Source of the DNA: an uncultured delta proteobacterium
GTDB lineage: Bacteria > Myxococcota > Myxococcia > Myxococcales > Anaeromyxobacteraceae
Length of the DNA: 64,000 nucleotides
Reading direction: 5' to 3'
Assembly (NCBI GenBank): GCA_963814585.1
Contig: CAWFDF010000004.1
Location: forward strand, 320,001 to 384,000
The notes under the pieces are model-generated. The model saw only the letters and a program-made list of their open reading frames with translations, had not been told where the DNA came from and searched no databases. Positions 1 through 14,066 of the stretch are shown here, piece by piece; within the stretch, counting starts at the first letter, position 1; each line of letters starts with the position of its first letter. The position numbers were made by a program, and so were the translations under genes.

Positions 1-351
1 GACCAGGCGGATCACCGGACCCGTGGCGGTGAGAGCGAGGCCGTTGACGACCCAGAGCGGCCTGAAGCGCGCCACCCCCCCGGCGCCCTGGCGAGCCTCC
101 AGCCAGGAGCGGATGGGACCCTGGGAGGAGTCGGCGCGGCTCCGCAGCGCCTGGATGGCGGCGCGGCGGCGCGCCGCCCGGTCCCCGCCGACGGCGCCGA
201 GGTCGGCGCGGTCCCTCAGGTGCACCATCACCGGGAGCGTCTCCCCCCGTGGCAGTCCGGCCAGCGCCGCCTGGACCTCGGCGGAGAGCTCCCCGGCCGC
301 GGCCGGCAGCGCCACCGCCATCGCCACCAGCATCGCGATCTTCCTCGTCAT
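1..351 (-). CDS. Secreted protein, probably the N-terminus (signal peptide plus propeptide) of an S8 subtilase-family serine peptidase; runs off the window edge
   Basis: Not in the ORF track. Hand translation from ATG 351: MTRKIAMLVAMAVALPAAAG (signal) ...LPVMVHLRDRADL...SQGPIRSWL...FRPLWVVNGLALTATGPVIRLV, which resembles bacillopeptidase F-type propeptides. GGGGAGGGG RBS. Catalytic domain not visible. Confidence 0.6.
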   Translation of the reverse strand, partial: MTRKIAMLVAMAVALPAAAGELSAEVQAALAGLPRGETLPVMVHLRDRADLGAVGGDRAARRRAAIQALRSRADSSQGPIRSWLEARQGAGGVARFRPLWVVNGLALTATGPVIRLV

Positions 352-373: not shown

Positions 374-866
374 CTAGTTCGCCACCACCGGCTCCACCCG
401 GACGTCCCCGAAGGCCACGGCCACCCGGGTTCCCGGGTGGATGACGCTGCGTGCATTCGGGTAGAGGAGGAAGCAGGCGGCGTTCTTCTGGATGCGGACG
501 TTTCGCATCGCCCCGTGCGACGGGGCCTGGAGCTCGGACTCGCTCCCCTCCGCCATCAGGCGCGGCAGCTTCCCGTGTTCGGCGAGGATGGGGCGCGCCT
601 TGGCCGGGTCGAGGACGGTGAACCGGAAGTCCACCAGCCCCCCACCCCCGATCACGGCGATCCGGTCGATGCGGACCCCGTAGCTCGTCTCGAGCGTGGC
701 CGCCGAGATGGCCCTCCCGCTCGCCGGCACGGACGCCGGCGTCGCCTGGTCGGCCCGCGCGGAGCCGGGGGAGGACCGCCACCAGCGCGATGCCGAGGGT
801 GAGGGCCAGCCTGCCCAGGCGGGCGGCGTGCCCGGCCCTCCACCATCGGCTCGACGAACCTTGCAT
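374..866 (-). CDS. Small exported or membrane-anchored hypothetical protein of the copper-oxidase operon (one frameshift near 740-770)
   Basis: Hydrophobic N-terminus (LALTLGIALVAVL) in the 348..866 frame. Globular beta-rich C-terminus (GVRIDRIAVIGGGGLVDFRFTVLDPAKA...LLYPNARSVIHPG) in the 374..730 frame. Confidence 0.6.
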
Positions 867-875
867 CGCGCGCTC

Positions 876-3447
876 CTAGTTGACCGTGATGGTGACCGTG
901 GCCGGCGGCGTCACCTTGCCGTTCAGCAACTCGGTGTAGGTGAACGTGTAGGTCCCGCGCTTGGAGGCCGCCCGGGCGGCTCCGTTGGCCCCGACGCCGT
1001 TGAGCGTCACCCGGTACGCGCCGTTGGTGCAGACCGTGTTGCCGCCGATGGCCGGCGTGGCGCCGGTCCCCAGCCCGCCCGGGCAGGTCACCGTGATGGT
1101 CCCCGCGCCGGTGCCGGCAGTCCGCACCGGGGCGCTCGCCAGCCTGGCGGTGCGCCCGGCCGCTCCGACGGGCAGGTCATTGGCGAGCACGCCAGCGGCC
1201 GCGTTCGCGTCGCTGGTCTGCGTCGCGTTGTTGTTGGCCGTGATGGCCCGGGCGTCGTTCACGGCGCTCGGCACGGTCAGCGTCGCGCTGCGCACCGGGC
1301 TCCAGTTGCCGGCTCCGTCGCGCACCCGGGCACGCGACGGTGTGGACGCCACCGGTCGAGGCGCTGATCGTGGTGCTGGTCCCCGTGAACGAGGTGGCGT
1401 TCGCCGGAGGCGTGGTCGTCCCGTCGAACCAGTACTGGCCGCCGGTGACGCCGCTGGCGAGGCCTCCGACCAGCGGATCGGTGGCGCCGTTCGCCGTCAG
1501 GGTGACGGCCTCGGCGATGATGGCGGTGGTCGGCGACAGCGCGATGCTGGTGAGCGCCGGGGCCGCCTTGTCGATGAGCAGGGCGACCGAGCTGGTCGGG
1601 CCCCAGTTGCCGGCCGCGTCCTTGCCCCGGACGAGGATGGCGTGGTTGCCCACCGGGAGGGCGTTGATGGTCGAGAGCGGGATGTCGGCGGAGGCGGCCT
1701 CCGACAGGCTGCCGAAGATGCCGTCGACCGGGACGAACTGGAAGCCGGTCCCCGGGGCGCCGGCGGTGTCGATGAAGCCCTCGCCGGCGGCGATGCGGGA
1801 GGCCGCATCGGCCAGGGTGGCGGTGACGCGCACCACGGCGGTGTTCGAGTTCACGGCCTGGGCGCCGTTGTTCGGGTTGGGCGTGGCGATGACGCTGCTC
1901 GCGACGGGCCCGGTCTTGTCCACCAGGAGGCTGGCGGTGGCGAAGGCGCCCCAGTTGCCGAGGGCGTCCTGGCTGCGGACCGAGACCACGTGCGGGCCGG
2001 CCGGCAGGGCCGCGACGGTCGCGGCGGGGATGGTCCCGGTCAGGCTGGCGACGGGGTCCGCCGCGTTGACGGTCAGTGACGTTCCGGTCCCGGGAGCCGG
2101 CGCTCCGGCCGGATCGATGAAGTACTCGGCCGCGGCGATGTTGGCGTTGCCGGTGGCGCGATCGTCGCCCGTGGCGCTGACCGCCACGTTCGCCGAGCCG
2201 TTGCTCGGGTTGGGGGCCAGGACCAGGCCGGTGGTGGCGGGCCCGGTGACATCGACGGAGAACGCGATCGAACGGGCCGCGCCCCAGTTGCCGAGGTCAT
2301 CCTGGCCGTTCACCGAGACGACGTGGCTCCCTGGAGGCTGCGCCGGAAGGACCGCTCCCAGGGTCACCGCGCCGGCAGGCGTGGCGACCGGCATGCCGAC
2401 CGGGCGTGCCCGAGTCGACCCAGTACTGCGCCGCCGTCACGGTTCGACCAGCGCCGGCCGCGATCGTGGCCGTCAACTGGCTGGCCAGGAGCGAGAGCGC
2501 CGTGACGGTCGGGGCCGGCCGCGGGCGGCGTCCCGCCCACCGAGAGGAAGGTGAGCATCCCGCCGAAGCCCTGGGCGCGGTTGTTGAACAGGTTCAGGCT
2601 GCCGTCCATCAGGGCGAACTGGCCGGTGGCGCCGGCCGGGACCGTGGCGATCGCGTCCATGGTCTGCCCGGGGGCGATGGTCTCCGCCACGCGGAGGCCG
2701 GGATGGGTGAGCGGGCTGCCGTCCTTGGCCACCACGGCCTGCTGCATGCCGAGCATGGTCATCGAGTGGTGCTGGACCCCCGCGTTGAGGTAGCGGAGCA
2801 GGACCTTGTTGCCGGCCGAGGCTCGCGATGGGCGCGGTGCCCGGGTAGGCCTTTCCGTTGATGAGGAAGTACTTGGGCGCGAAGTTCCGCATGTCGAAGG
2901 TGGCCGGGTTCGCCCTGCCGTTGAGCGCCGGGTCGAGCTCGGAGAGCACCAGCACGGCCTCGTCGTCGTAGGCCGTGGCCGCGGTGCCGTAGGCCTGGGG
3001 CGGGATCGTGGCCGGCGGCCGCACGATGAGCGCACCGTGGAGCCCCATGGCCACCTGGTGCTGCGAGTTGGGGAGCGGGCCGGCCTCGTAGAGGAAGGTG
3101 CCGGGGTTGGTCGCCGTGAAGGTGTAGGAGATCGAGCCGGCGGCGGCCGCGCCCACCGTGTCGGGGACCAGCGCCTGACCCTGGAAGAGGAGCCCGGTCG
3201 GCTCGCCCAGGAGGTTGTGGAGCGTGACGGTCACGACGTCTCCCTGGGCGACGTCGAGGACCGGGCCACCGGGCGGCGATGACGGTCGCGTCGGCGGTCC
3301 GAGGTGTAGCCCAGGACAGGGAAGGACCTCGTGTCCGGCAGCGTGGTCGAGCCGCTCCTTGGCGTAGAGGTCGAAGGTTGCCGCCTGTGCCGCCCCCGCC
3401 AGGAGCAGGAGGCCGAGTCCAAAGGCGTGCCGTAGGTAGGTGGTCAT
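876..3447 (-). CDS. Multicopper-oxidase-like protein A: signal peptide, two cupredoxin domains lacking most Cu ligands, tandem Ig-like repeats and a C-terminal Ig/cadherin-like domain (several frameshifts)
   Basis: Stitched from ORFs 2473..3588, 2364..3035, 1177..2394 and 876..1352. MTTYLRHAFGLGLLLLAGAAQA signal; GPVLDVAQGDVVTVTLHN, PGTFLYEAG..HQVAMGLHG, YFLINGKAYP, LLRYLNAG; repeated AEYFID..PGTG and QDxxGNWG units; GVLAND motif. Confidence 0.75.
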
Positions 3448-3461
3448 GGCGAGCTCCGGTG

Positions 3462-4766
3462 CTACGGGCAGTCGTTCGGCAGCGGGGGATCGATCCGGAG
3501 GTAGGTGACCGGTCCGGACATGACCACGCCCCAGGAGGTGATCTGATACAGGGCGTGGTTGTGGGAGATGATGTAGAACTCGCCGCACTGGTTGAGCGTG
3601 TTGGTGCCGGGCGGGAGCGGCCCCTTCTCACCCAGGTAGGGGCTCCCGCTGTAGAACATCCCGGGCACCAGGTTGGCGACGTTGCTGGTGACGACCGGGA
3701 TCGGGTTCGTCACCGGCGAGTAGCCCTCGGCGTCCCGCCACTTGAAGCTGACGTCCCAGGTCTGGCCGGGGCCGATGTTGATGGCGAACTTCTCGAAGGA
3801 GAGGTCCTGGCCCGCCGAGCCCTCGAGCGGCCAGCCGTCCCGGCCGATGACCAGGCCGTTGTTGCCGTGCGGATGGAAGGGGTAGTTCTCGCTCCCGACG
3901 CTGAGGTAGCGGATCAGGCCCGGGTCCGGGTGGTAGCTCGGATCGCCGGGCGCGGCGGTGTTCATCTCGTGGATCCGCGCCAGGGCCCCGTAGGGCTGGC
4001 TCGGCAGCCAGGAGGCGAAGTTGTCGGCGATGGTGTCGGGGAAGCCACGGCCGTTCACCATCCAGTAGCGCGGATGGTAGAGGGTGATGTTGAAGGGCTG
4101 CCCCGCCTCCGCCGCCTGGTGCTGGTACGGATCGATCTCCGAGAGCAGCACCATGAACTCCTCGCCCAGCGTGAATTTGCTGTCGGGCCGGTCGTAGGCC
4201 TGCTCGGGGCTCCCGGCCGGCCGCACCACCAGCGCGCCGAAGTACCCCATGCGGACCTGCTTCTGGGGCTCGGTGCCGCTCTGGTACAGGAAGGTGCCGG
4301 GCCGGCTGGCCACGAAGCTGTAGGTGACGCTCCCCCCGTTCCTGGGCGCGACGTTGGTCAGCGAGGTGAGCTTGCCGGTGGCGTCGAACTGGGGCTGGGC
4401 CGGGGCCCCGTCGGCCAGGACGCCCTCCTGGCCGGGGAAGACGATGGAGACGTCCTCGGGGGAGCCGTTCTGCAGGTTGATCGTGACCGTCTCACCCGCG
4501 GTGACGCACAGCACCGGGCCGGGGTGCTGGAACGGCTGCCCCGCCGCGGTGTAGCCCAGCATGTACATGGTGTTGCCGTCCGGGAGGTTGATGTACCCGG
4601 CGCTGGTGGACAGGTTGAAGCTCGGGCCGGTGGTGCAGGCGATGCCCACCGCCGGCGCCTGGGCAGCTGCCGGAGGGGCGTGGGCGGCCAGGGCCGCCGC
4701 CCCGGCCGCCAGGCCCAGCTTGACCGCGACGACCCACCGCATTCCCTTGGTCCGCTGTGCGCGCAT
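3462..4766 (-). CDS. Multicopper-oxidase-like protein B: two cupredoxin domains, with HxH motifs only in domain 2
   Basis: Intact 434-aa ORF. Signal peptide; PGPVLCVTAGETVTINLQN, PGTFLYQSG..QVRMG, WMVNGRGFPDT, YPFHPHG, ISHNH. Confidence 0.85.
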   Translation of the reverse strand: MRAQRTKGMRWVVAVKLGLAAGAAALAAHAPPAAAQAPAVGIACTTGPSFNLSTSAGYINLPDGNTMYMLGYTAAGQPFQHPGPVLCVTAGETVTINLQNGSPEDVSIVFPGQEGVLADGAPAQPQFDATGKLTSLTNVAPRNGGSVTYSFVASRPGTFLYQSGTEPQKQVRMGYFGALVVRPAGSPEQAYDRPDSKFTLGEEFMVLLSEIDPYQHQAAEAGQPFNITLYHPRYWMVNGRGFPDTIADNFASWLPSQPYGALARIHEMNTAAPGDPSYHPDPGLIRYLSVGSENYPFHPHGNNGLVIGRDGWPLEGSAGQDLSFEKFAINIGPGQTWDVSFKWRDAEGYSPVTNPIPVVTSNVANLVPGMFYSGSPYLGEKGPLPPGTNTLNQCGEFYIISHNHALYQITSWGVVMSGPVTYLRIDPPLPNDCP

Positions 4767-4785
4767 GGTCTCTTCTCCTTGCGAA

Positions 4786-6142
4786 CTAGGTGTTGGGGAG
4801 CAGCTGGGCCGGGAGCGTGCCCGCCGGGTAGACCCGCACTTCCGTGCGCTGCCCGCCGAAGCCGCCGGCCAGGTTGTTCGAGCGCTCGAAGGCGCGGTTG
4901 TAGAGGAGGTAGGTGTCCGGCCCCGGGTTGCCGCTGTGCGGCGGCGCCGTGAAGATGGCGTCGACGCTCTCGCCGGCGCCGAACGACACGGTGCTGGCCT
5001 CGTAGCTGGTGTCGGTCCCGTCGCGCCCCCGCATCGGCGTGGCGTCCTTGCCGACCACCCTCATCTTGATCCCGGCCAGCGTCATGGACGACTCCTTGAA
5101 GCCCAGGTTGGCGAAGCGCAGGAGCACGCGCTCGCCGGCGTTGCAGGTCACCAGGGCCGAGAGCGGCTGGTACTGGAGATCGGGGCGTCCGGCCGGGGCG
5201 ATCAGGTCGCCATCGGGGGCGCGCACCATCGAGAGGGTGTTCCTGGACCTGGCCGGATCCGGGTCGATCGGCGCATTGGGCGCCAGCGTGTCCGGGTAGA
5301 CCCGGCCGTTGAGGAGGGCGAAGTCGACGTGGTAGTCGCTCCACTCCGGGAGCTGGATGTGGGCGTCGGCCCAGTGCGCCTCGGCCCAGATCTCCGAGAG
5401 GAACATGGCGAACTCGCGGTGGTAGCCGGTGGATCCGTCGCCGTCGTTGTAGGCGAACCTGGTGAAGCCGCCGAAGCTCTGGCCATCCTGCAGCGGCCGC
5501 ACGAAGACGGGGCCGGTCATCCCCATGTGGACGTGCTCCACGTCCTCCACGTGGCAGTGGAACATGTAGGTCCCGGGCTCGCGCGGGCGGTAGACGTAGG
5601 TGAAGAAGCGCCCGGCGGGCACCGACGACCGAGCCGGTCGGCTCGCCGTCGAAGAACGGGATGACGTTGCGGAAGCCGTGCCAGTGGACGGTGTGCTCGT
5701 CGAACAGGTCCGGCCGGATCGCCAGCCCCAGGTTGGTGAGCTGGATCTTGAAGTCCTTCGGGCTGGCCGGGTTGAACTGGTCCACCCAGAACATCGGCGC
5801 CGAGTGCTGGGCCCGGCTCTTCTGGCCGGACACCAGGGTGGCGTCCAGGCCGGTGACGTCCCGGAAGCCGAAGATGTAGGTGGTGAACGGGGCGGGGGCG
5901 AGGTTGTCCGGGTGGAACACGCCGATCGGCGGTGACGCCGGCAGCGAGATCCAGCCGTCGGTCCCGGCCAGGAAGAGGTCGTAGGGCTCGGCGGCGGCGG
6001 CGGTCCCCACCCCGGCCGGCAGGAGCGCCTTCCTGAGGAAGCCCGGCATCAGGCCGACCCCGGCCGACGCCACCAGCGCCCCGCCTGCACCCTTGAGGAA
6101 GCTCCGCCGGTCGAACAGCTTGCCAGGTGACTTTCCGCTCAT
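4786..6142 (-). CDS. Tat-exported multicopper-oxidase protein C with a type-1 Cu site in domain 1 (one frameshift near 5625)
   Basis: DRRSFLK twin-arginine signal; EHTVHWHG; YMFHCHVEDVEHVHMGM; second cupredoxin domain (LLNGRVYP, LLRFANLG) without His motifs. Confidence 0.85.
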
Positions 6143-6239: not shown

Positions 6240-9200
6240 TCAGGGGACGGCCCCTCCCCGGAAGTCGTCGGCGCGGGCGCCCGCCGGGAGCTGGAGGCCG
6301 ACGCGGCCGCCTCCCGTGGAGTTCGACAGGTTCGAGCGTCCGAGGTAGGTGGTGACCGACGCGGCGGTCGTCCGCCACACGTCCACCGAGCCGTCCACGT
6401 TGGCGACCGCCGTGAGCGTGTCCCCCGTGGCGAAGGCTCCCGCCAGCGTCCCCAGCGTCGCGAAGTTCGGGGTTGCGGTGTTCCCGGTGGTGGTCCTCCG
6501 GACCAGCACCTGGCCCCCATTGGCCGGCTGGTACTGGACCCGGAGGTAGTTGGCCGGGTTGTTCGCCGTGCCAGCCCCGTTCGTCACCTTCAGGAGGAGG
6601 CTCTCGCCGCCGGATGGCGCCGTCCGGAACGTGAAGGCCGCGCCCTGCCTGGTGCCGAAGTTCGGGGAAGGCCCGGCCCAGTTCGCCTGGCCGGCGAGGA
6701 GTGCATAGGCCTGGCTGGCGTTGACCCGGATCGACGCCGCGCCGAGGACCGTCACCTGGTTCCAGTTTCCACCGAGGTTGTTCGAGTTGGCCCGGCTGAA
6801 GGCGTCGAGGACGGCCAGCGTGGGAAGGATCGGCGCTGGAGGAGGCGGCGGGGTGACCTGGCCAAGCTCGTCCGCGCCGACGTCGTAGCTGCCGCCGGCC
6901 GGCCGGGGCTGGCCGTCGATGTCGAACGCGGGGGCGGCAACCGTGGTGGCCCCGACCGTCTTGCTCGCCGCTCCGGCGTTGACGGCCGGCGAGGTGTCCT
7001 TGAGGTGGTAGTTGCCCATCAGGGTTGGCGGGACGTCCACCGCCACCAGGATGGCGCCGATGAAGGCGGGGTTGTTCCGCCAGACGTTGAAGCTCACCGA
7101 GGCGTCGTAGGTGGCGACCACGGCCGGGTCGACGCCGACCTGGTTGGTGGGGCTGGCGTTGGTGCCCGTGCTCGACTGCAGCACCGAGCTGGTGGGGGAG
7201 AGCAGCCCCGAGGCGTCGGAGGCGCCCATGTCCCAGGTGCTGATCGGGCTGGCGTCCCCGGTGATGCCAAGGCCCGTCACCGTGCTCCCGGCCCGGGTCC
7301 CGGCCCGGTTGTCCCAGAAGATGTTGTTGAACTGGAGCGGGTCGCTGAAGATGGGCGAGCCTGCCGGCAGCGTGCCCTGCAGCAGGACGCTGTTCTCCGA
7401 GGTGGAGAGGCCGGCCGGGGCCGCCGAGCCGCTGCTGGTGACGGCGGTGGCGGTGGTGAGGTTCTTCATCACGGTGTTGTTGAAGAACCGGACGGCGGGC
7501 GTGTCGTTGAGGCTGACGCCGCCGCCCTCGTGGGTGGAGACGTTGTTCACGATGAAGTTGTTGTAGACGTTCATCGGGAAGTTGCCGGCCATGAGGAACC
7601 GGATGCCGCCGCCGTCGTCGTTGGCGAGGTTGGCCTGGATGACGTTGTCGTGGATGTCCACCGGCCCCGAGCCCGGCGAGAGGACGGTCGGGCTGGACGG
7701 GAGCTGGCCGGCGATCATGATGCCGCCGCCCTCGTCGTAGGACTTGTTGAAGTAGACGCGGTTGTGGTGGATCTGGCCGCCGGGGCTGAGGCCGTAGGCG
7801 GTCAGGCCGCCGCCGTACTCGGCCGAGAAGTTGCCGCAGACGTCGTTGCCCGCCACCTCGTAGCCGTCGGCGCCGGCGAAGAGGCCGATGCCGCCGGCCA
7901 GGTTGGTCCCGCCGTTGGCGATGATGCGGTTGCTGGCGATGCGGACGCCCTCGTTGTGGTTGCTGGTGTCGGGCGCCGGCAGGTCCGGCGTCCCCACGCG
8001 GATGGTGCCGTAGGCGCCGCCGTTGTTCTGGACCACGTTGTTGGTGATCTGCAGGTTGCGGGCGTAGCCGTTGGCGAAGATCGCCCCGCCCTGGGTGATG
8101 AGCCCGCCCGGCTGGCCGGTGGGGCCGCCGCCGATGACGTTGATGTTGCCGGGGAAGCCCTGCTGGTCGCCGCCACGCAGGTCGAAGCCGTCGATGGAGG
8201 GCGCCGAGGCGGCGCTGAAGGCGGTCGGGAAGGCGTTGCGCCCGGTGGCGGGCACGAAGATCGAGATGACCGCGCCGTCGTAGATGGTCTGGTTGCCAGC
8301 CCAGGTCAGGGACAGGATCTTCGTGTACCAGTCGGCGGCCACCGGGCCGTCGCCGGCGAAGGCGCCGCCGTCGATGATCGAGCCGCGCACCGAGCCGTCG
8401 GGGCTGCCCGGGCCGACGCCCTGCAGCTTGACCTTGCTGGCGACGATGAGGTTCTCGTAGTAGGCCCCGCGTGGGTTCTGCCGAGGGTCGGCGCTGGGGA
8501 GGTTCGGGTAGACGACCACCAGGGCGCCCCGGTTGGCGTTCCCGTTCGACGCCGCGACGAACGTGGCCGCCGCGTCCAGGGCCCGCTGGATGGCGTGATT
8601 GGCCGCGGCCGGGAGCGAGTCGGCCGGCGCGTAGGTCCTGCCGGGGCCCACCTCGAAGATGGCCGGGTTGTAGCGCTGAGCCGTGGGGCCCGTCGTCTTG
8701 ATGACGTGGAAGGTGAGGCCGTTCACCGTGGCCTGCCCGTTGGCGGCGGTGACCCTGAGCTGCTGCGGGCCTCCGGGCGTGCTGCCGGGGACGGTCACCT
8801 GGATTTGCCCGTCGTTCCACGAGGTCGTCGGCAGGTTGACGCCGTTCAGCGTGACCTGGCCGGTGTCCTTGATGGCGCCGAAGCCCCGTCCCTGGATCGT
8901 GAAGGAGCGGTCCGTGTTGTTGCTGACGTTGGCGTGGGGCTGGGACACCGCGAAGAGCTGCGGCGTGGCCGCGTCGAGCGCGCAGCTCACGCTGTTGGTC
9001 TGCCCGCCGGGGAGCTGGACCACCACGCCCACCTGCGTCGGCGCCAGGTCGGCCGGCACGATGAGGCCGGGGATGGCCTCGAACTCGGCGGCGATGGTGC
9101 GGAACTCCGGCCGGTAGTTGGTGTTGAGGCGGCCCGGGACGCCCGGGTCGTTGCCGACCATCCGGTAGACGTTGGCGCAGACGCCGGACGGCGTGGGGCA

Positions 9201-12099
9201 GTTGATCCGGTTGGTGGAGGGCAGCAGGACGTCGAAGAGGCCGTTGAAGTCGGACTCGACGGTGGTGACCAGCCGGTTGGTGTAGTCGTAGATGCCGACC
9301 GGGGCGAAGGGCACGCCGGCCTTCTCGCCGTAGAGCAGCGAGCGCGGATCCGAGGAGAAGGTGAGGTCGTCGACGATGAGGCCCCAGAAGCGGACCGGGA
9401 CCGGCACGTCGGTGAAGTAGTTGAAGGTCGGCGCGATCGACCGGCCGTTGGCGAGCGTGACCAGCTTGGTGCTGCAGAGCGGCTTGGGCTGGCCCTCGTA
9501 AGGGGAGCCGCCGATGTCGATGAAGGTGGCGTTGTCGGTCGGCGTCGAGGCCGGGACCGTGATCCCGACCGGGAGCGTGATGCCGTCGCCCACCATCGGC
9601 GGGTAGTTGTCGGCGCCGACGCCGGCGACGTCCACGATGTGCAGCGGCCCGGCACAGGCCGGCGGTGGGACCTGCGGGACCCAGTCGTCGCCGTTGGCGA
9701 TGTTGATGTCCTCCTCGCGGGTCACCTTGTAGCTGGGACGGCCGGTGGCGTCGTCCGGGACCACCACCTCGACCAGGTAGTCGCGGCCGCCGGGCAGGGG
9801 CGCGAACGCCCCGCCCACGCAGACCGGGGCGGACGGGTCGGTGGCGTCGAGCGTGCCGGTGAAGCAGCCCTCGCCGAAGCCGTAGTTGCCGTCCACCGTG
9901 GAGTAGCCGTTCTGGAACTGCACCCCCATGAGCGGGCCTTCCAGGCACTCGGCGTCAGGCGGCAGCGGCAGCACCTGCTCGTCGACGCCGTGGACCAGGG
10001 GGATGCCGTCCACGTCGCGGGCCACGCAGCCGGTCGGCCGCTCCCAGGTCTCGGTCAGGCGGTGTTGAGGAGGGCGCCCCTGGAGTAGGCGCCGCTGGCG
10101 TCGAGCTGGTACCGCTCGGTGGGGTCGCAGGGCGCGGTGGGAATCCCGGTGTTCGGGTCCAGGGGGCAGGGCACCGTGGCCCAGAGCTTCACCGTCAGGT
10201 TGGGGATGCCGGGCTGCCAGGGCTCCACGGCCGCGTAGCGCGGGTCGAGCTCGTTGCGGGTGGTGTCGTAGCTGATCGTGCCGACGATGCCGCCGTTGCG
10301 CGGATCGAGGCCGCCGGTGGCGCCGGTCGCGTCGTACGGACGCACGCCCCAGTCCAGGCGGCCAGCCAGGCCGATGATGGGCAGCACGCTCACGTCCACG
10401 CCGGCGCCCAGGACGGTGGTGGGCGTGTCCTGGTTGTCGGCCTGGAAGGTGACGCCGGTGGTGTAGAAGAGGTCCGCGTACGCCTCGACGACCAGCCACT
10501 GGGTCATCGGGTAGGCGTTCACCATCTCGTAGTAGCCGTTGGCGTCGGTGGTGACCCCGGTCGCCCCGCGGTCCATCACCGAGTTCTCGCGCTTCTTCAG
10601 CGCCACCGGGAAGTTGGCCAGGCCCGGCTCGCCGGGATCCTTGATCCCGTTCCGGTTGAGGTCGTTGAAGACGTAGCCGTCGATCCTGGTCCACCAGCCG
10701 TTCAGGGGGAGGATCCCCATGTCGACGGTCTCGCCCTCACCCACGGTGACCTGGACGAGGTCGAGGAGGTAGTTGAGGTCCGCCTCCCACCAGGTGAGCG
10801 TGTAGTTGCCGGCCGGGACGTTGGGGATGGTGAAGGCGCCGTTGGCGTCGCCCCGCCCCGCCCAGACCAGCGTGTCGCTGCGCGTCAGGTCGGTCAGCGT
10901 GACCCAGGGGTACGGGATCGGCTTGTCGAGCTTGGCGCCAGCCAGGCCGCCCCAGATCGTGCCGGGGAGCCCTCCCACGCCACCGCGGGTCGGGATGTAG
11001 ACCTTCACGGCCTCCACCACGCCCTTGATGGTGCCGGTCCCTCCCATGGGCCGGGCTGCTGGCCGGGAGGCACCGGCACGTAGCCGAAGATGATGGCGGG
11101 GAAGGGCTCGCCGGCGACCACGAACTCGGTGTCGAGGCCGGTGGCTCCTTCCATGACCCAGGCGTCCCAGTCCAGGTTGCCTTCGAGGGTGGTGGTCTGG
11201 GCCCAGCTCGAGCCGTCGGGCGGCACGATGGAGAGCGCGTAGCGGTTGGGGCCGACGTCCGGGATCTTGAGCTTCCCCTCGACGACGGCGCCGGCCGGCG
11301 CGAGCCCGCCCTCCAGCATGGTCAGGCCGGCCGCATCGACGGGGCAGCGGCCCGCGGCGTCGACGGGCGCCACGGTCCCGACGTCGACCCCGCCGCTCAC
11401 CACGTAGCACTTGCTCAGGCAGATGCCGGTGCCGCACAGGGGCGCACCGAAGACGTCGGTCGTCACCTCGCCGATGTAGTCGGCGATGTGCCCCTGGAAC
11501 CCGGCCAGGCCATGCTCGAGCGGCACGTCCGGAGCGCCGTTCACCGGCGAGATGTCCTCGAACACCGCGGCCTGGATGGTCGCGGTGGGGAGCGGGTAGG
11601 GCTGCAGCTGGACGGTGACGACGCCACCGCTCGAGGCCGGCAGCGGCACGGTGAAGTGCGCCCCGTCCATCTTGTAGCCAGCGGCGAGCACCGTGACGAG
11701 GTACTTGCCATCCACCATGTTCACGCCGGCTGATGCGAGGCCGGCCTCGGCCTCGGTCCCCTGCGCGTAGATCGGGGCCGAGCCCGGGACCCCGGCGATC
11801 GACGTCCAGGCGCAGCTGCCCGGGTAGCCGGGGCCATCCGGTGTGCACTCCGGTGGCGGCGCGCCCGTCACCGGGTTCAGCCGCTGGCTCGTCGTGCCCG
11901 CGTTGTCGACGTTGATGAGGAACTTGAACGCCGTGACGCTCTCCAGCGCGTTGGTCGCGCTGACCACGTTGAGCTTCACGCTGGCCGCCTCGGCGCGCGG
12001 CGCCAGGGCGACGGCCACGCTCGCCGTGACGAGCAGGTGGGCGAAGGCGCGGGTCCACTGCGCTGCGCCAGGGTTCTTGCAGTTCATTCTGGGCTCCAT
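6240..12099 (-). CDS. Giant (~1950 aa) secreted multidomain protein: SdrD-B/prealbumin-like domains, IPT/TIG domain, right-handed parallel beta-helix, choice-of-anchor-Q-like segment and C-terminal beta-sandwich (frameshifts near 11050 and 10058)
   Basis: Stitched from ORFs 11005..12324, 10055..12058 and 6240..10694. GGGGGAG RBS before ATG 12099; signal ending APRAEA; GYVFNDLNRNGIKDPGEPGL (SdrD-B-like); FTIQGRGFG..SWNDGQIQVTVP (IPT); Asn-rich N..GGGI beta-helix repeats; YHLKDTSPAVNAG..DIDGQPRP..YDVGADE. Confidence 0.8.
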
Positions 12100-12184: not shown

Positions 12185-12380
12185 GGTCGTCGGCCGGCTC
12201 CGGGGTGGCCTAGGCCTCTGGGACTCGTACGAAGGGATGTCGCCGCGCCGAAGCGCGCGGATCGGGCACGGGCGAACCGATCACCGTCGGCGGGGTGGCG
12301 GGCCCCTCGCCTGGAGAGAGGCACCCGCGTCGGGGCGTAAGTGTGGATTCGCAGAAATCCCCTGTCACTTCAACGTGGTA

Positions 12381-12413
12381 TGTCCTGTTGCGACAAAGTG
12401 TCATATATGGAAC
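12381..12413. promoter_or_regulatory. Putative upstream activator (enhancer) sites
   Basis: TGTC-N7-GACA palindrome at 12381-12395 followed by an imperfect copy TGTCATATATGGAAC at 12399-12413, in an AT-rich patch ~200 bp upstream of the sigma-54 promoter. Confidence 0.45.
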
Positions 12414-12417
12414 CGCC

Positions 12418-13536
<1,119 letters not shown>

Positions 13537-13646
13537 GCCCCTTCCCCGGTCCGGCCAGGCTTCCTCCTTCCCTGGCGAGCCGGGCCGCCGGAAGCGCTTG
13601 GCCTTCGGCGCCCGGCACGGGTAGGTTGGCCGCCAGCGGAGGGGGC

Positions 13647-14066
13647 ATGATCGAGCGCATCGGGATCTCGCTGGAGTCCGACCTGCTGAGGCAGTTCGAC
13701 CGGCTGATCGAGCAGAAGGGGTACGTCAACCGGTCCGAGGCGATCCGCGACCTCATCCGCGACACCCTGGTCCAGCGGGAATGGTCCGAGTCCAGCGGCG
13801 CCGAGGAGCGGGTGGCGGTGGTCGCGCTGGTCTACGATCACGACTCGTCGAGCCTGGCGCAGAAGCTGGCCCACATCCAGCACGAGAACCACCGCGCCGT
13901 GGTGTCGGCGCTGCACGTCCACATGGACGAGCACAACTGCCTGGAGGTGCTGGTGCTGCGCGGCCGGGCCGGGGACGTCGTGGCCATGGGCGAGGGGCTG
14001 GTCTCCACCAAGGGCGTGAAGTTCGGCAAGGTCCTGCCGGCGACCACCGGGCAAGGGCTGCGCTAG
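13647..14066 (+). CDS. nikR: Nickel-responsive transcriptional regulator NikR
   Basis: RIGISL ribbon-helix-helix, GYVNRSEAIRDLIR, YDH, QH, LHVHMDEHNCLEV. Confidence 0.95.
   Translation: MIERIGISLESDLLRQFDRLIEQKGYVNRSEAIRDLIRDTLVQREWSESSGAEERVAVVALVYDHDSSSLAQKLAHIQHENHRAVVSALHVHMDEHNCLEVLVLRGRAGDVVAMGEGLVSTKGVKFGKVLPATTGQGLR

What the first reader, a model, noticed from the sequence alone, without database searches (positions are those of the whole stretch)
876..6142. Three paralogues appear to split one multicopper-oxidase active site: candidate heterotrimeric MCO with ceruloplasmin-like topology
Seen: three adjacent genes each encode two cupredoxin domains, and none has a full ligand set. 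Protein C (4786-6142) domain 1 has HTVHWH and HCHVEDVEHVHMGM, a complete type-1 Cu site plus 4 His of the trinuclear cluster. Its domain 2 has lost the His motifs (ESSMTLAG, LYNR). Protein B (3462-4766) is the mirror image: domain 1 has none (VSIVFPG, YQSG) and domain 2 has HPH and HNH, the other 4 His. Protein A (876-3447) lacks both sets and carries Ig-like repeats instead. Established: in trimeric two-domain MCOs the 8-His T2/T3 cluster sits between domain 1 of one subunit and domain 2 of the next, and six-domain ceruloplasmin keeps only one such cluster. Inference: A, B and C form an asymmetric heterotrimer with one T1 site and one inter-subunit trinuclear cluster at the C-domain-1/B-domain-2 interface, with A as structural or anchoring subunit. 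Only C, the T1-bearing subunit, has a Tat signal. I know of no characterised enzyme organised this way. A possible role is extracellular Mn/Fe or organic-substrate oxidation.
Basis: partly seen in the sequence, partly recalled or inferred. Interest (0 to 1): 0.9.

Follow-up and report, generated by a model that had tools for sequence, protein, structure and literature searches.

The report
Copper oxidase split over three subunits
Three neighbouring genes each encode a copper-oxidase-like protein, but the residues for one working copper centre are divided between two of them and missing from the third, so they most likely work only as one joint, secreted enzyme; the same gene set is switched on in an iron-oxidising bacterium growing on the mineral magnetite.

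Summary
Observation confirmed. C holds the type-1 site plus four cluster histidines in domain 1, B the other four in domain 2, A none. The frameshifts are assembly errors.

The split is conserved across several phyla. In loci picked by C alone, B follows in 100 of 109 (the rest end the contig). All 73 complete B copies keep four His; 0 of 57 A cores have any HxH.

The trio arose once from an intact type-C two-domain oxidase. The upstream 2,000-residue beta-helix protein D is naturally fused to C or A in relatives, so it is probably a fourth subunit.

Best reading: an obligate secreted hetero-oligomer, most likely a C-A-B ring with one trinuclear cluster at the B-domain-2/C-domain-1 interface (0.7). 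Binding is inferred, not shown.

The cluster is in print (Sideroxydans Slit_1816-1818, induced on magnetite). I found no split-site reading in nine searches. C is about 10-fold scarcer than B in that proteome, and the Tat signal is subfamily-specific.

The scan already found this system in six other genomes. New variant of a known kind; interest 0.72.

The parts
4786..6142 (-). Gene C: Tat leader, two cupredoxin domains. Domain 1 has the type-1 Cu ligands (His, Cys, His, Met) and 4 His of the trinuclear cluster; domain 2 lacks both HxH motifs. One assembly frameshift near 5626.
3462..4766 (-). Gene B (434 aa, intact): Sec-type leader. Domain 1 has no Cu ligands; domain 2 has HPH and HNH (the other 4 cluster His) and no type-1 Cys.
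876..3447 (-). Gene A: Sec-type leader, two cupredoxin domains without Cu ligands (about 2510-3370), then Ig-like repeats. Six assembly frameshifts.
6240..12099 (-). Gene D, about 1,950 aa: secreted protein with SdrD-B/carboxypeptidase-regulatory, TIG and right-handed beta-helix regions. Two frameshifts (~11065, ~10060). Fused to C or to A in relatives; probable fourth subunit or scaffold.
   Evidence: no solved relative by sequence
374..866 (-). Gene E: small secreted protein of no known family, probably frameshifted near 750. Conserved directly after A in all subfamilies.
   Evidence: 71 of the 80 loci
1..348 (-). Start of a subtilase (S8) gene with Ig/cadherin repeats that continues beyond the window. 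Seen after E in a minority of related loci.
12295..13536 (+). Divergent sigma-54-type activator (Walker A and GAFSGA motifs read from the translation); same position in L066. Possible regulator of the operon.
   Evidence: family not scanned; no sigma-54 consensus matched my pattern upstream of D

Best explanation
C, B and A are secreted paralogues that assemble into one asymmetric ring of six cupredoxin domains in the order B-C-A. Only one of the three inter-subunit clefts, B domain 2 against C domain 1, keeps eight His and binds a trinuclear T2/T3 cluster. C domain 1 also holds the single type-1 Cu. A substrate is oxidised one electron at a time at C's type-1 site, electrons pass along the Cys-His path to the shared cluster, and O2 is reduced to water: four Cu per trimer instead of twelve. 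A closes the ring and carries Ig-like arms. D (beta-helix, adhesin-like repeats) and probably E complete a cell-surface or extracellular assembly that presents the oxidase to a solid or polymeric substrate. My odds for the substrate: mineral-bound Fe(II) or Mn(II) about 0.5, phenolic or humic polymers about 0.25, Cu(I) handling about 0.15. Shown: ligand pattern, its conservation, fold, gene order, fusions, single origin. Inferred: complex formation, ring order, Cu content, activity, substrate.
For: (1) B-selected loci: order D-C-B-A(-E) wherever DNA is present in 80 genome loci from Chloroflexota, Actinomycetota, Myxococcota and Betaproteobacteria. C domain-1 motifs 77 of 77 intact copies; B motifs 80 of 80 (circular: the scan used them); A HCH 0 of 79, and 6 of 79 A sequences have a singleton HxH somewhere. 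(2) Loci selected on C only: B is the next paralogue in 100 of 109, and the other 9 end within 220 bases of C. Two paralogues follow in 59 of 59 loci with at least 2.6 kb downstream. Of 74 rows sorted as complete B, 73 have all four His and the 74th is a truncated A; 0 of 57 A cores have HxH; 103 of 103 C keep all eight domain-1 ligands (14 truncated B rows and 4 frameshifted loci left out; C's domain-1 motifs partly selected by the scan). (3) 104 near-full-length C homologues from 204 protein hits: 0 have HxH in either domain-2 ligand loop, and each domain-1 ligand is kept in 102-104. (4) Model of C: best folds 2zwn (Z 22.7, rmsd 2.6, 257 aligned) and 3g5w (Z 22.5, rmsd 2.9, 258 aligned), tied with a nitrite reductase. 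(5) Tree of 85 sequences: A, B and C each monophyletic (0.998, 0.924, 0.99), A+B sisters (0.99), with intact eight-His proteins P0187-P0197 outside (FastTree support). (6) Six natural B-linker-A fusions (P0121-P0126) among 17 long hits, linkers about 170-460 aa; no clean C-B fusion in 17+60 long hits. This is what a B-C-A ring predicts, since gene order runs against ring order. (7) D fused N-terminally to C in full-length proteins such as P0285, P0263, P0291, P0339 and loci L166, L177, L200, L207, or C-terminally to A in L130, L131, L133, L134, L138-L140, L156, L173, L181, L202, L221-L223. (8) The orthologous cluster of Sideroxydans ES-1 is co-induced at protein level on magnetite (PMC12016527). 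Cytochrome c, SCO1, PPIase and a type II secretion system flank betaproteobacterial copies, as they flank known metal-oxidase genes.
Against: No experiment on any member. In the ES-1 proteome summed iBAQ is about 173M for A-D, 170M for B, 193M for E but 14M for C (columns inferred from matching intensity and peptide counts; 1-3 peptides per sample), which does not fit a strict 1:1:1 ring unless C is under-detected. In the window's subfamily C goes by Tat and B and A by Sec, so subunits must meet after export. Ligand logic requires only C and B; A's place in the ring rests on synteny, paralogy and fusions. Many carriers are not known metal oxidisers. The loci are related, some duplicated (3 of the 73 B rows appear to repeat loci; pairs such as L170/L171 are near-identical), so counts are not independent. 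The window itself has no SCO or cytochrome gene beside the operon (SCO genes lie on other contigs).
Confidence: 0.7

Rival explanations
1. C and B share the cluster, but in C/B-only oligomers (CB2, C2B or mixed rings); A is an optional or separate anchoring protein.
For: Only C and B carry ligands. The ES-1 abundances show C scarce relative to B and A. A is the least conserved subunit (mean column identity 43% against 59% and 66%).
Against: A follows in 59 of 59 loci with enough DNA. It keeps both cupredoxin domains and invariant residues at former ligand loops. It is fused to B in six proteins.
Confidence: 0.15
2. C acts alone as a homo-oligomeric type-1 electron carrier or Cu-binding protein; B's four His form a separate Cu-loading or storage site; no shared trinuclear cluster.
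For: Different export routes in this subfamily. C has further conserved residues at the start of domain 2 (H189 in 102 of 104, Q196 in 100 of 104). Cytochromes are encoded beside some copies.
Against: C keeps exactly the four domain-1 cluster His and B exactly the four domain-2 cluster His at their aligned positions across all subfamilies, with reciprocal loss. Neither half makes a known site alone. No C without an adjacent B was seen where DNA was available.
Confidence: 0.1
3. The C/B interface holds a nitrite-reductase-like type-2 site and the complex reduces or oxidises nitrogen oxides.
For: Copper nitrite reductases tie with the type-C oxidases in the fold search. A related two-domain enzyme oxidises hydroxylamine (PMC11761707, passages).
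Against: All eight His are retained, more than a type-2 site needs (recalled: three His). TIGR02376 scores 20-28 bits against a cut-off of 296. Neighbouring genes are secretion, SCO, cytochrome, CopC/D and adhesin-like genes, and no nitrogen-cycle family was among the neighbour clusters that I scanned.
Confidence: 0.05

Closest known systems
Type-C two-domain multicopper oxidases (metagenomic laccase PDB 2zwn; Nitrosomonas europaea blue copper oxidase PDB 3g5w)
   Same: Two cupredoxin domains per chain; type-1 Cu in domain 1 with the same HCH-x5-H spacing; cluster His contributed by domain 1 and domain 2 of different subunits.
   Different: They are homotrimers with all ligands in each chain and three clusters. 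Here the ligands are divided between two paralogues and a third has none, leaving one cluster and one type-1 site.
Sideroxydans lithotrophicus ES-1 cluster Slit_1812-1818 (He 2017, PMC5566968; Keffer 2025, PMC12016527)
   Same: Three tandem cupredoxin genes, the third motif-less and 2,873 aa long, with SCO1 and cytochrome genes. Its published peptides match my third subfamily by eye: Slit_1817 the B loop WQHPFHFHGNH, Slit_1818 the His-less domain 2 of C, Slit_1816 A fused to D (against 51, 61).
   Different: The papers call two of the proteins ordinary multicopper-oxidase-motif proteins of unknown role; the words trimer and heterotrimer do not occur in Keffer 2025. In the window D is a separate upstream gene and C has a Tat leader.
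Six-domain multicopper proteins (ceruloplasmin, hephaestin, MnxG)
   Same: Six cupredoxin domains with at most one trinuclear cluster, between an even and the following odd domain (PMC3600357).
   Different: Single chain; type-1 sites in domains 2, 4, 6. Here three chains and the type-1 site in an N-terminal domain: a parallel reduction from a type-C ancestor, not a step to ceruloplasmin.
MofA/OmpB and MnxG/McoA metal-oxidase gene clusters
   Same: Secreted copper oxidases flanked by cytochrome c, PPIase, SCO1, a dedicated type II secretion system and, in Pseudomonas, a sigma-54 activator (compare).
   Different: Those oxidases are complete in one chain. He 2017 states that the three tandem proteins are not homologous to them. 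I did not align them.
Nmar_1354 (PDB 9cck)
   Same: Two-domain oxidase crystallised as an asymmetric alpha-alpha-alpha' trimer (PMC11761707).
   Different: One gene; the asymmetry is loss of a pendant domain; all three clusters are intact.

Membership tests
Type-C two-domain multicopper oxidase | Two cupredoxin domains per chain | tested here: met
   Models of C and B match 2zwn/3g5w over both domains; A by alignment only.
Type-C two-domain multicopper oxidase | Type-1 Cu ligands in the N-terminal domain | tested here: met
   Met by C (103 of 103); absent from B and A.
Type-C two-domain multicopper oxidase | All eight cluster His within each chain | tested here: not met
   C four, B four, A none.
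Type-C two-domain multicopper oxidase | Homotrimer with inter-subunit trinuclear clusters | not testable with these tools
   A homotrimer of any one chain could not supply eight His (inference).
Type-C two-domain multicopper oxidase | O2-dependent oxidase activity | not testable with these tools
   No assay in the papers read.
Copper nitrite reductase | Family model above its cut-off | tested here: not met
   TIGR02376 19.9-27.6 bits on the pieces scanned, cut-off 296.3.
Six-domain multicopper protein (ceruloplasmin/MnxG type) | Six cupredoxin domains in one chain | tested here: not met
   Three genes; longest natural fusions join only B and A.
Six-domain multicopper protein (ceruloplasmin/MnxG type) | Type-1 sites in even-numbered domains | tested here: not met
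   The only type-1 motif is in C domain 1 (definition from PMC3600357).
Six-domain multicopper protein (ceruloplasmin/MnxG type) | A single trinuclear cluster per six-domain ring | tested here: inconclusive
   Ligand count allows exactly one; the ring itself is inferred.
Sideroxydans Slit_1816-1818 three-cupredoxin cluster | Orthology and order C, B, A(-D), E | tested here: met
   Published peptides, lengths (515, 520, 2,873, 170 aa) and order match L221-L223 and L133-L140 by eye; these group with the window's A, B, C in the tree. Full ES-1 sequences were not aligned.
MofA/OmpB or MnxG/McoA metal oxidases | Sequence homology over the oxidase | not tested
   He 2017 reports none.

The most novel reading that the evidence does not exclude
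A widespread class of obligate heteromeric multicopper oxidases (C-B-A ring with one inter-subunit trinuclear cluster, mounted with E on a giant beta-helix/adhesin scaffold D) that oxidises mineral-bound Fe(II) or Mn(II) at cell surfaces, and is the unexplained magnetite-induced cupredoxin system of Sideroxydans.
Probability: 0.3. Interest if true: 0.88.

Novelty: new variant of a known kind. Interest (0 to 1): 0.72.

Why it matters
Characterised multicopper oxidases are described as single chains or homotrimers (PMC13151041). An enzyme whose O2-reducing cluster exists only between two different gene products would be a new quaternary class. It would be a living case of a homomer turned obligate heteromer by complementary loss, reaching the one-cluster design of ceruloplasmin by another route. 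In practice, these proteins are annotated one by one as multicopper oxidases, and any single-gene expression test would fail. The split-site model says what to co-express. It gives a direct test for the uncharacterised cupredoxins induced during magnetite oxidation in Sideroxydans ES-1, and a tractable non-pathogenic host (Cupriavidus metallidurans CH34) carries the operon.

Tried and rejected
Complex prediction (L066 C+A+B with four Zn, partner B): no verdict. Score 0.94, but the control with C replaced and A kept scored 0.75, so the margin was missed; no contacts were given. Not used as evidence either way.

Sequencing runs: no RNA holder listed.

L055 apparent B-A fusion: a frameshift read-through, A keeps its own leader. 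P0131, P0132, P0133, P0138, P0139, P0140, P0141 and P0176: read-throughs with broken domains or internal leaders, not counted as fusions.

Pseudogene reading of A, C, D: rejected.

Tat co-export of B and A on C: rejected as a general mechanism. My first Tat pattern was too narrow (53 of 77) and was widened.

The 80 of 80 count for B's motifs is circular, because the scan used them; replaced.

D: no solved relative by sequence, few conserved His, not folded. E: no Pfam or NCBIfam family; Atlas look-up not available. Atlas search with B gave only generic multicopper-oxidase clusters. No sigma-54 promoter matched my pattern.

The domain-1 tree leaves A paraphyletic and the domain-2 root is unsupported (0.24), so the order of ligand losses is not resolved. 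The neighbour clustering was noisy with antisense frames. Paired coevolution was not attempted (too few independent sequences).

The strain name UYMn621 gave no paper. Lawton 2009 was not held.
Full report
1. Observation. All three hit Cu-oxidase Pfam models and none reaches an NCBIfam cut-off. B is intact; C has one and A six frameshifts. The assembly is error-prone: rpoB and rpoC are in 8 and 7 pieces. Contigs of related strains lack the extra base at 5625-5627 in 4 of 4 runs laid and show gaps over the breaks in A. The genes are therefore treated as intact in life. The nearest named relatives are Anaeromyxobacteraceae and a delta-proteobacterial bin, so the host is probably a myxococcotan (inference).

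2. Ligand logic. C domain 1 aligns with the type-1/cluster motif of the type-C enzyme 2zwn, and C's ESSMTLAG lies on the domain-2 His loop of 2zwn. A model of an intact C orthologue (L066, pLDDT 82) is closest to 2zwn (Z 22.7) and 3g5w (Z 22.5), tied with a nitrite reductase. The B model (pLDDT 78, C-terminal part weak) matches the same folds. In two-domain oxidases the cluster is bound by His of domain 1 of one subunit and domain 2 of the adjacent one (PMC13151041, passages). C supplies only the first set, B only the second, A neither, so a complete cluster can form only between B domain 2 and C domain 1 (inference).

3. Conservation. B has 2,215 relatives among 8,000 candidates. Both B motifs are kept in 119 of 119 listed. 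Eighty genome loci from four phyla show D-C-B-A-E wherever DNA is present; intact C 77 of 77 with both motifs, A 0 of 79 with HCH. Because that scan used B's motifs, I repeated the test from C. A profile search of 401 genomes of the host's phylum found C in 28 (29 regions fetched). A metagenome scan with a divergent C alignment gave 80 more loci. B is the next paralogue in 100 of these 109, and the other 9 end within 220 bases. After leaving out 14 truncated B rows and 4 frameshifted loci, 73 of 74 rows have all four His, and the 74th is a truncated A. No A core (0 of 57) has HxH. All 103 C rows keep the eight domain-1 ligands; 5 have an HxH elsewhere downstream. Among 104 near-full-length C homologues of 204 protein hits, none has HxH in a domain-2 ligand loop. 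These loci are related and partly duplicated, so the counts show strict conservation, not independent trials.

4. Origin. Eight proteins with all eight His in one chain and a domain-1 motif like C's were found (P0187, P0188, P0190, P0191, P0193, P0195-P0197). In a tree of 85 sequences rooted on five of them, A, B and C are each monophyletic across three subfamilies and A+B are sisters. Reading: one intact type-C gene duplicated; C lost the domain-2 His, the A/B ancestor lost the domain-1 ligands, and A then lost the rest. The single-domain trees do not fix this order. Six-domain enzymes keep at most one cluster and carry type-1 sites in domains 2, 4, 6 (PMC3600357, passages). This system reaches a one-cluster design in parallel and is not an ancestor of ceruloplasmin.

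5. Fusions. Among 17 long relatives of B, six are clean B-linker-A fusions with linkers of about 170-460 residues. No clean C-B fusion appeared in these or in 60 long relatives of C; the tool warns that such absence is weak evidence. A cluster at B-D2/C-D1 needs the ring order B-C-A, against gene order, so only long-linker fusions in gene order should survive, as seen (inference). D, a roughly 2,000-residue secreted protein with SdrD-B, TIG and beta-helix regions, is fused in front of C in many proteins (41 of 204 hits have a D-like part, a few of them read-throughs) and in 4 loci. It is fused behind A in 14 loci. D is thus tied to the oxidase from both ends. E follows A in 71 of 80 loci and in the divergent subfamilies.

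6. Export and context. C has a Tat-type leader in 70 of 77 close loci, B in 4 of 80, A in 0 of 79, but C has one in only 2 of 101 divergent rows. Copies on the chromids of Cupriavidus metallidurans CH34, Paraburkholderia and Ralstonia have C-B-A/D-E. Where scanned (CH34 and the Ralstonia locus) they lie between a type II secretion system and LolA-like, cytochrome c, SCO1 and PPIase genes. Single-linkage clustering of neighbours in 192 loci gave groups represented by cytochrome c (20 loci), SCO1 (18) and CopC-CopD (49; may merge families). Similar helpers flank MofA/OmpB and MnxG (PMC5566968 section 13; PMC13689576 passages).

7. Literature. He 2017 noted three tandem extracellular oxidase genes in S. 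lithotrophicus ES-1 with no functional clue (section read; supplements searched). Keffer 2025 found Slit_1812-1818 more highly expressed on magnetite, two proteins with oxidase motifs and a third without, and similar clusters in Paraburkholderia, Ralstonia and Anaeromyxobacter (passages; supplement rows; the figure S4 picture was not visible). Their peptides match my third subfamily by eye. The late-magnetite versus Fe-citrate differences are +7.7, +5.5 and +3.5 log2 for A-D, B and C on fresh magnetite. Against a strict trimer, summed iBAQ of C is about one twelfth of B, while A-D, B and E are near equal. With 1-3 peptides per sample this is weak but real. Nine full-text searches gave no paper describing a split or heteromeric multicopper oxidase site. 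The library lacks most subscription journals; Lawton 2009 was not held, and Nakamura 2003 and Graff 2020 were seen only in reference lists. Also seen as passages without a split-site statement: PMC11761707, PMC6769254, PMC13488337, 10.64898/2026.01.22.701106. Six earlier notes of this scan reach the same split reading on other genomes; a word search for the Sideroxydans link among them found nothing.

8. Verdict. It works like a type-C two-domain oxidase but fails membership, because no chain has all eight His. The substrate is open; mineral-bound Fe(II) or Mn(II) is my best guess (about 0.5). New variant of a known kind; interest 0.72.

Noticed in passing
L066:7363-8460 residues 183-206 (window about 5330-5400): In the window's subfamily C has an invariant acidic/His stretch at the start of domain 2 (E183, H189, D192, H194). 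Only H189 and Q196 persist in divergent C; a His at that position is also common in B and in intact relatives. Candidate metal-substrate or extra Cu site.
   Followed up: partly
P0187-P0197: Intact eight-His type-C-like oxidases of 646-672 aa with large insertions; closest complete relatives of C found; one is labelled manganese oxidase by its source.
   Followed up: partly
P0161-P0175, P0181, P0182: Divergent C proteins fused behind PF22778/PF01569 (PAP2-like, haloperoxidase-related by my recall) domains, some from Kiritimatiellia and Planctomycetes.
   Followed up: no
P0127-P0130: B proteins with C-terminal non-cupredoxin extensions of about 350 aa.
   Followed up: no
window 13620-14066 (+): NikR-like regulator (by eye from the translation) right after the sigma-54 activator.
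   Followed up: no
L112:158-1669 (-): A separate, complete three-domain-type multicopper oxidase lies upstream of one divergent operon.
   Followed up: no
G000:C8 118600-127100: rpoB and rpoC are broken by many indels; the whole assembly should be read as frameshift-prone.
   Followed up: yes
L009, L048, L004, L054, L002, L005: Three Chloroflexota genomes carry two copies of the whole operon, and many loci carry a second E paralogue downstream.
   Followed up: no
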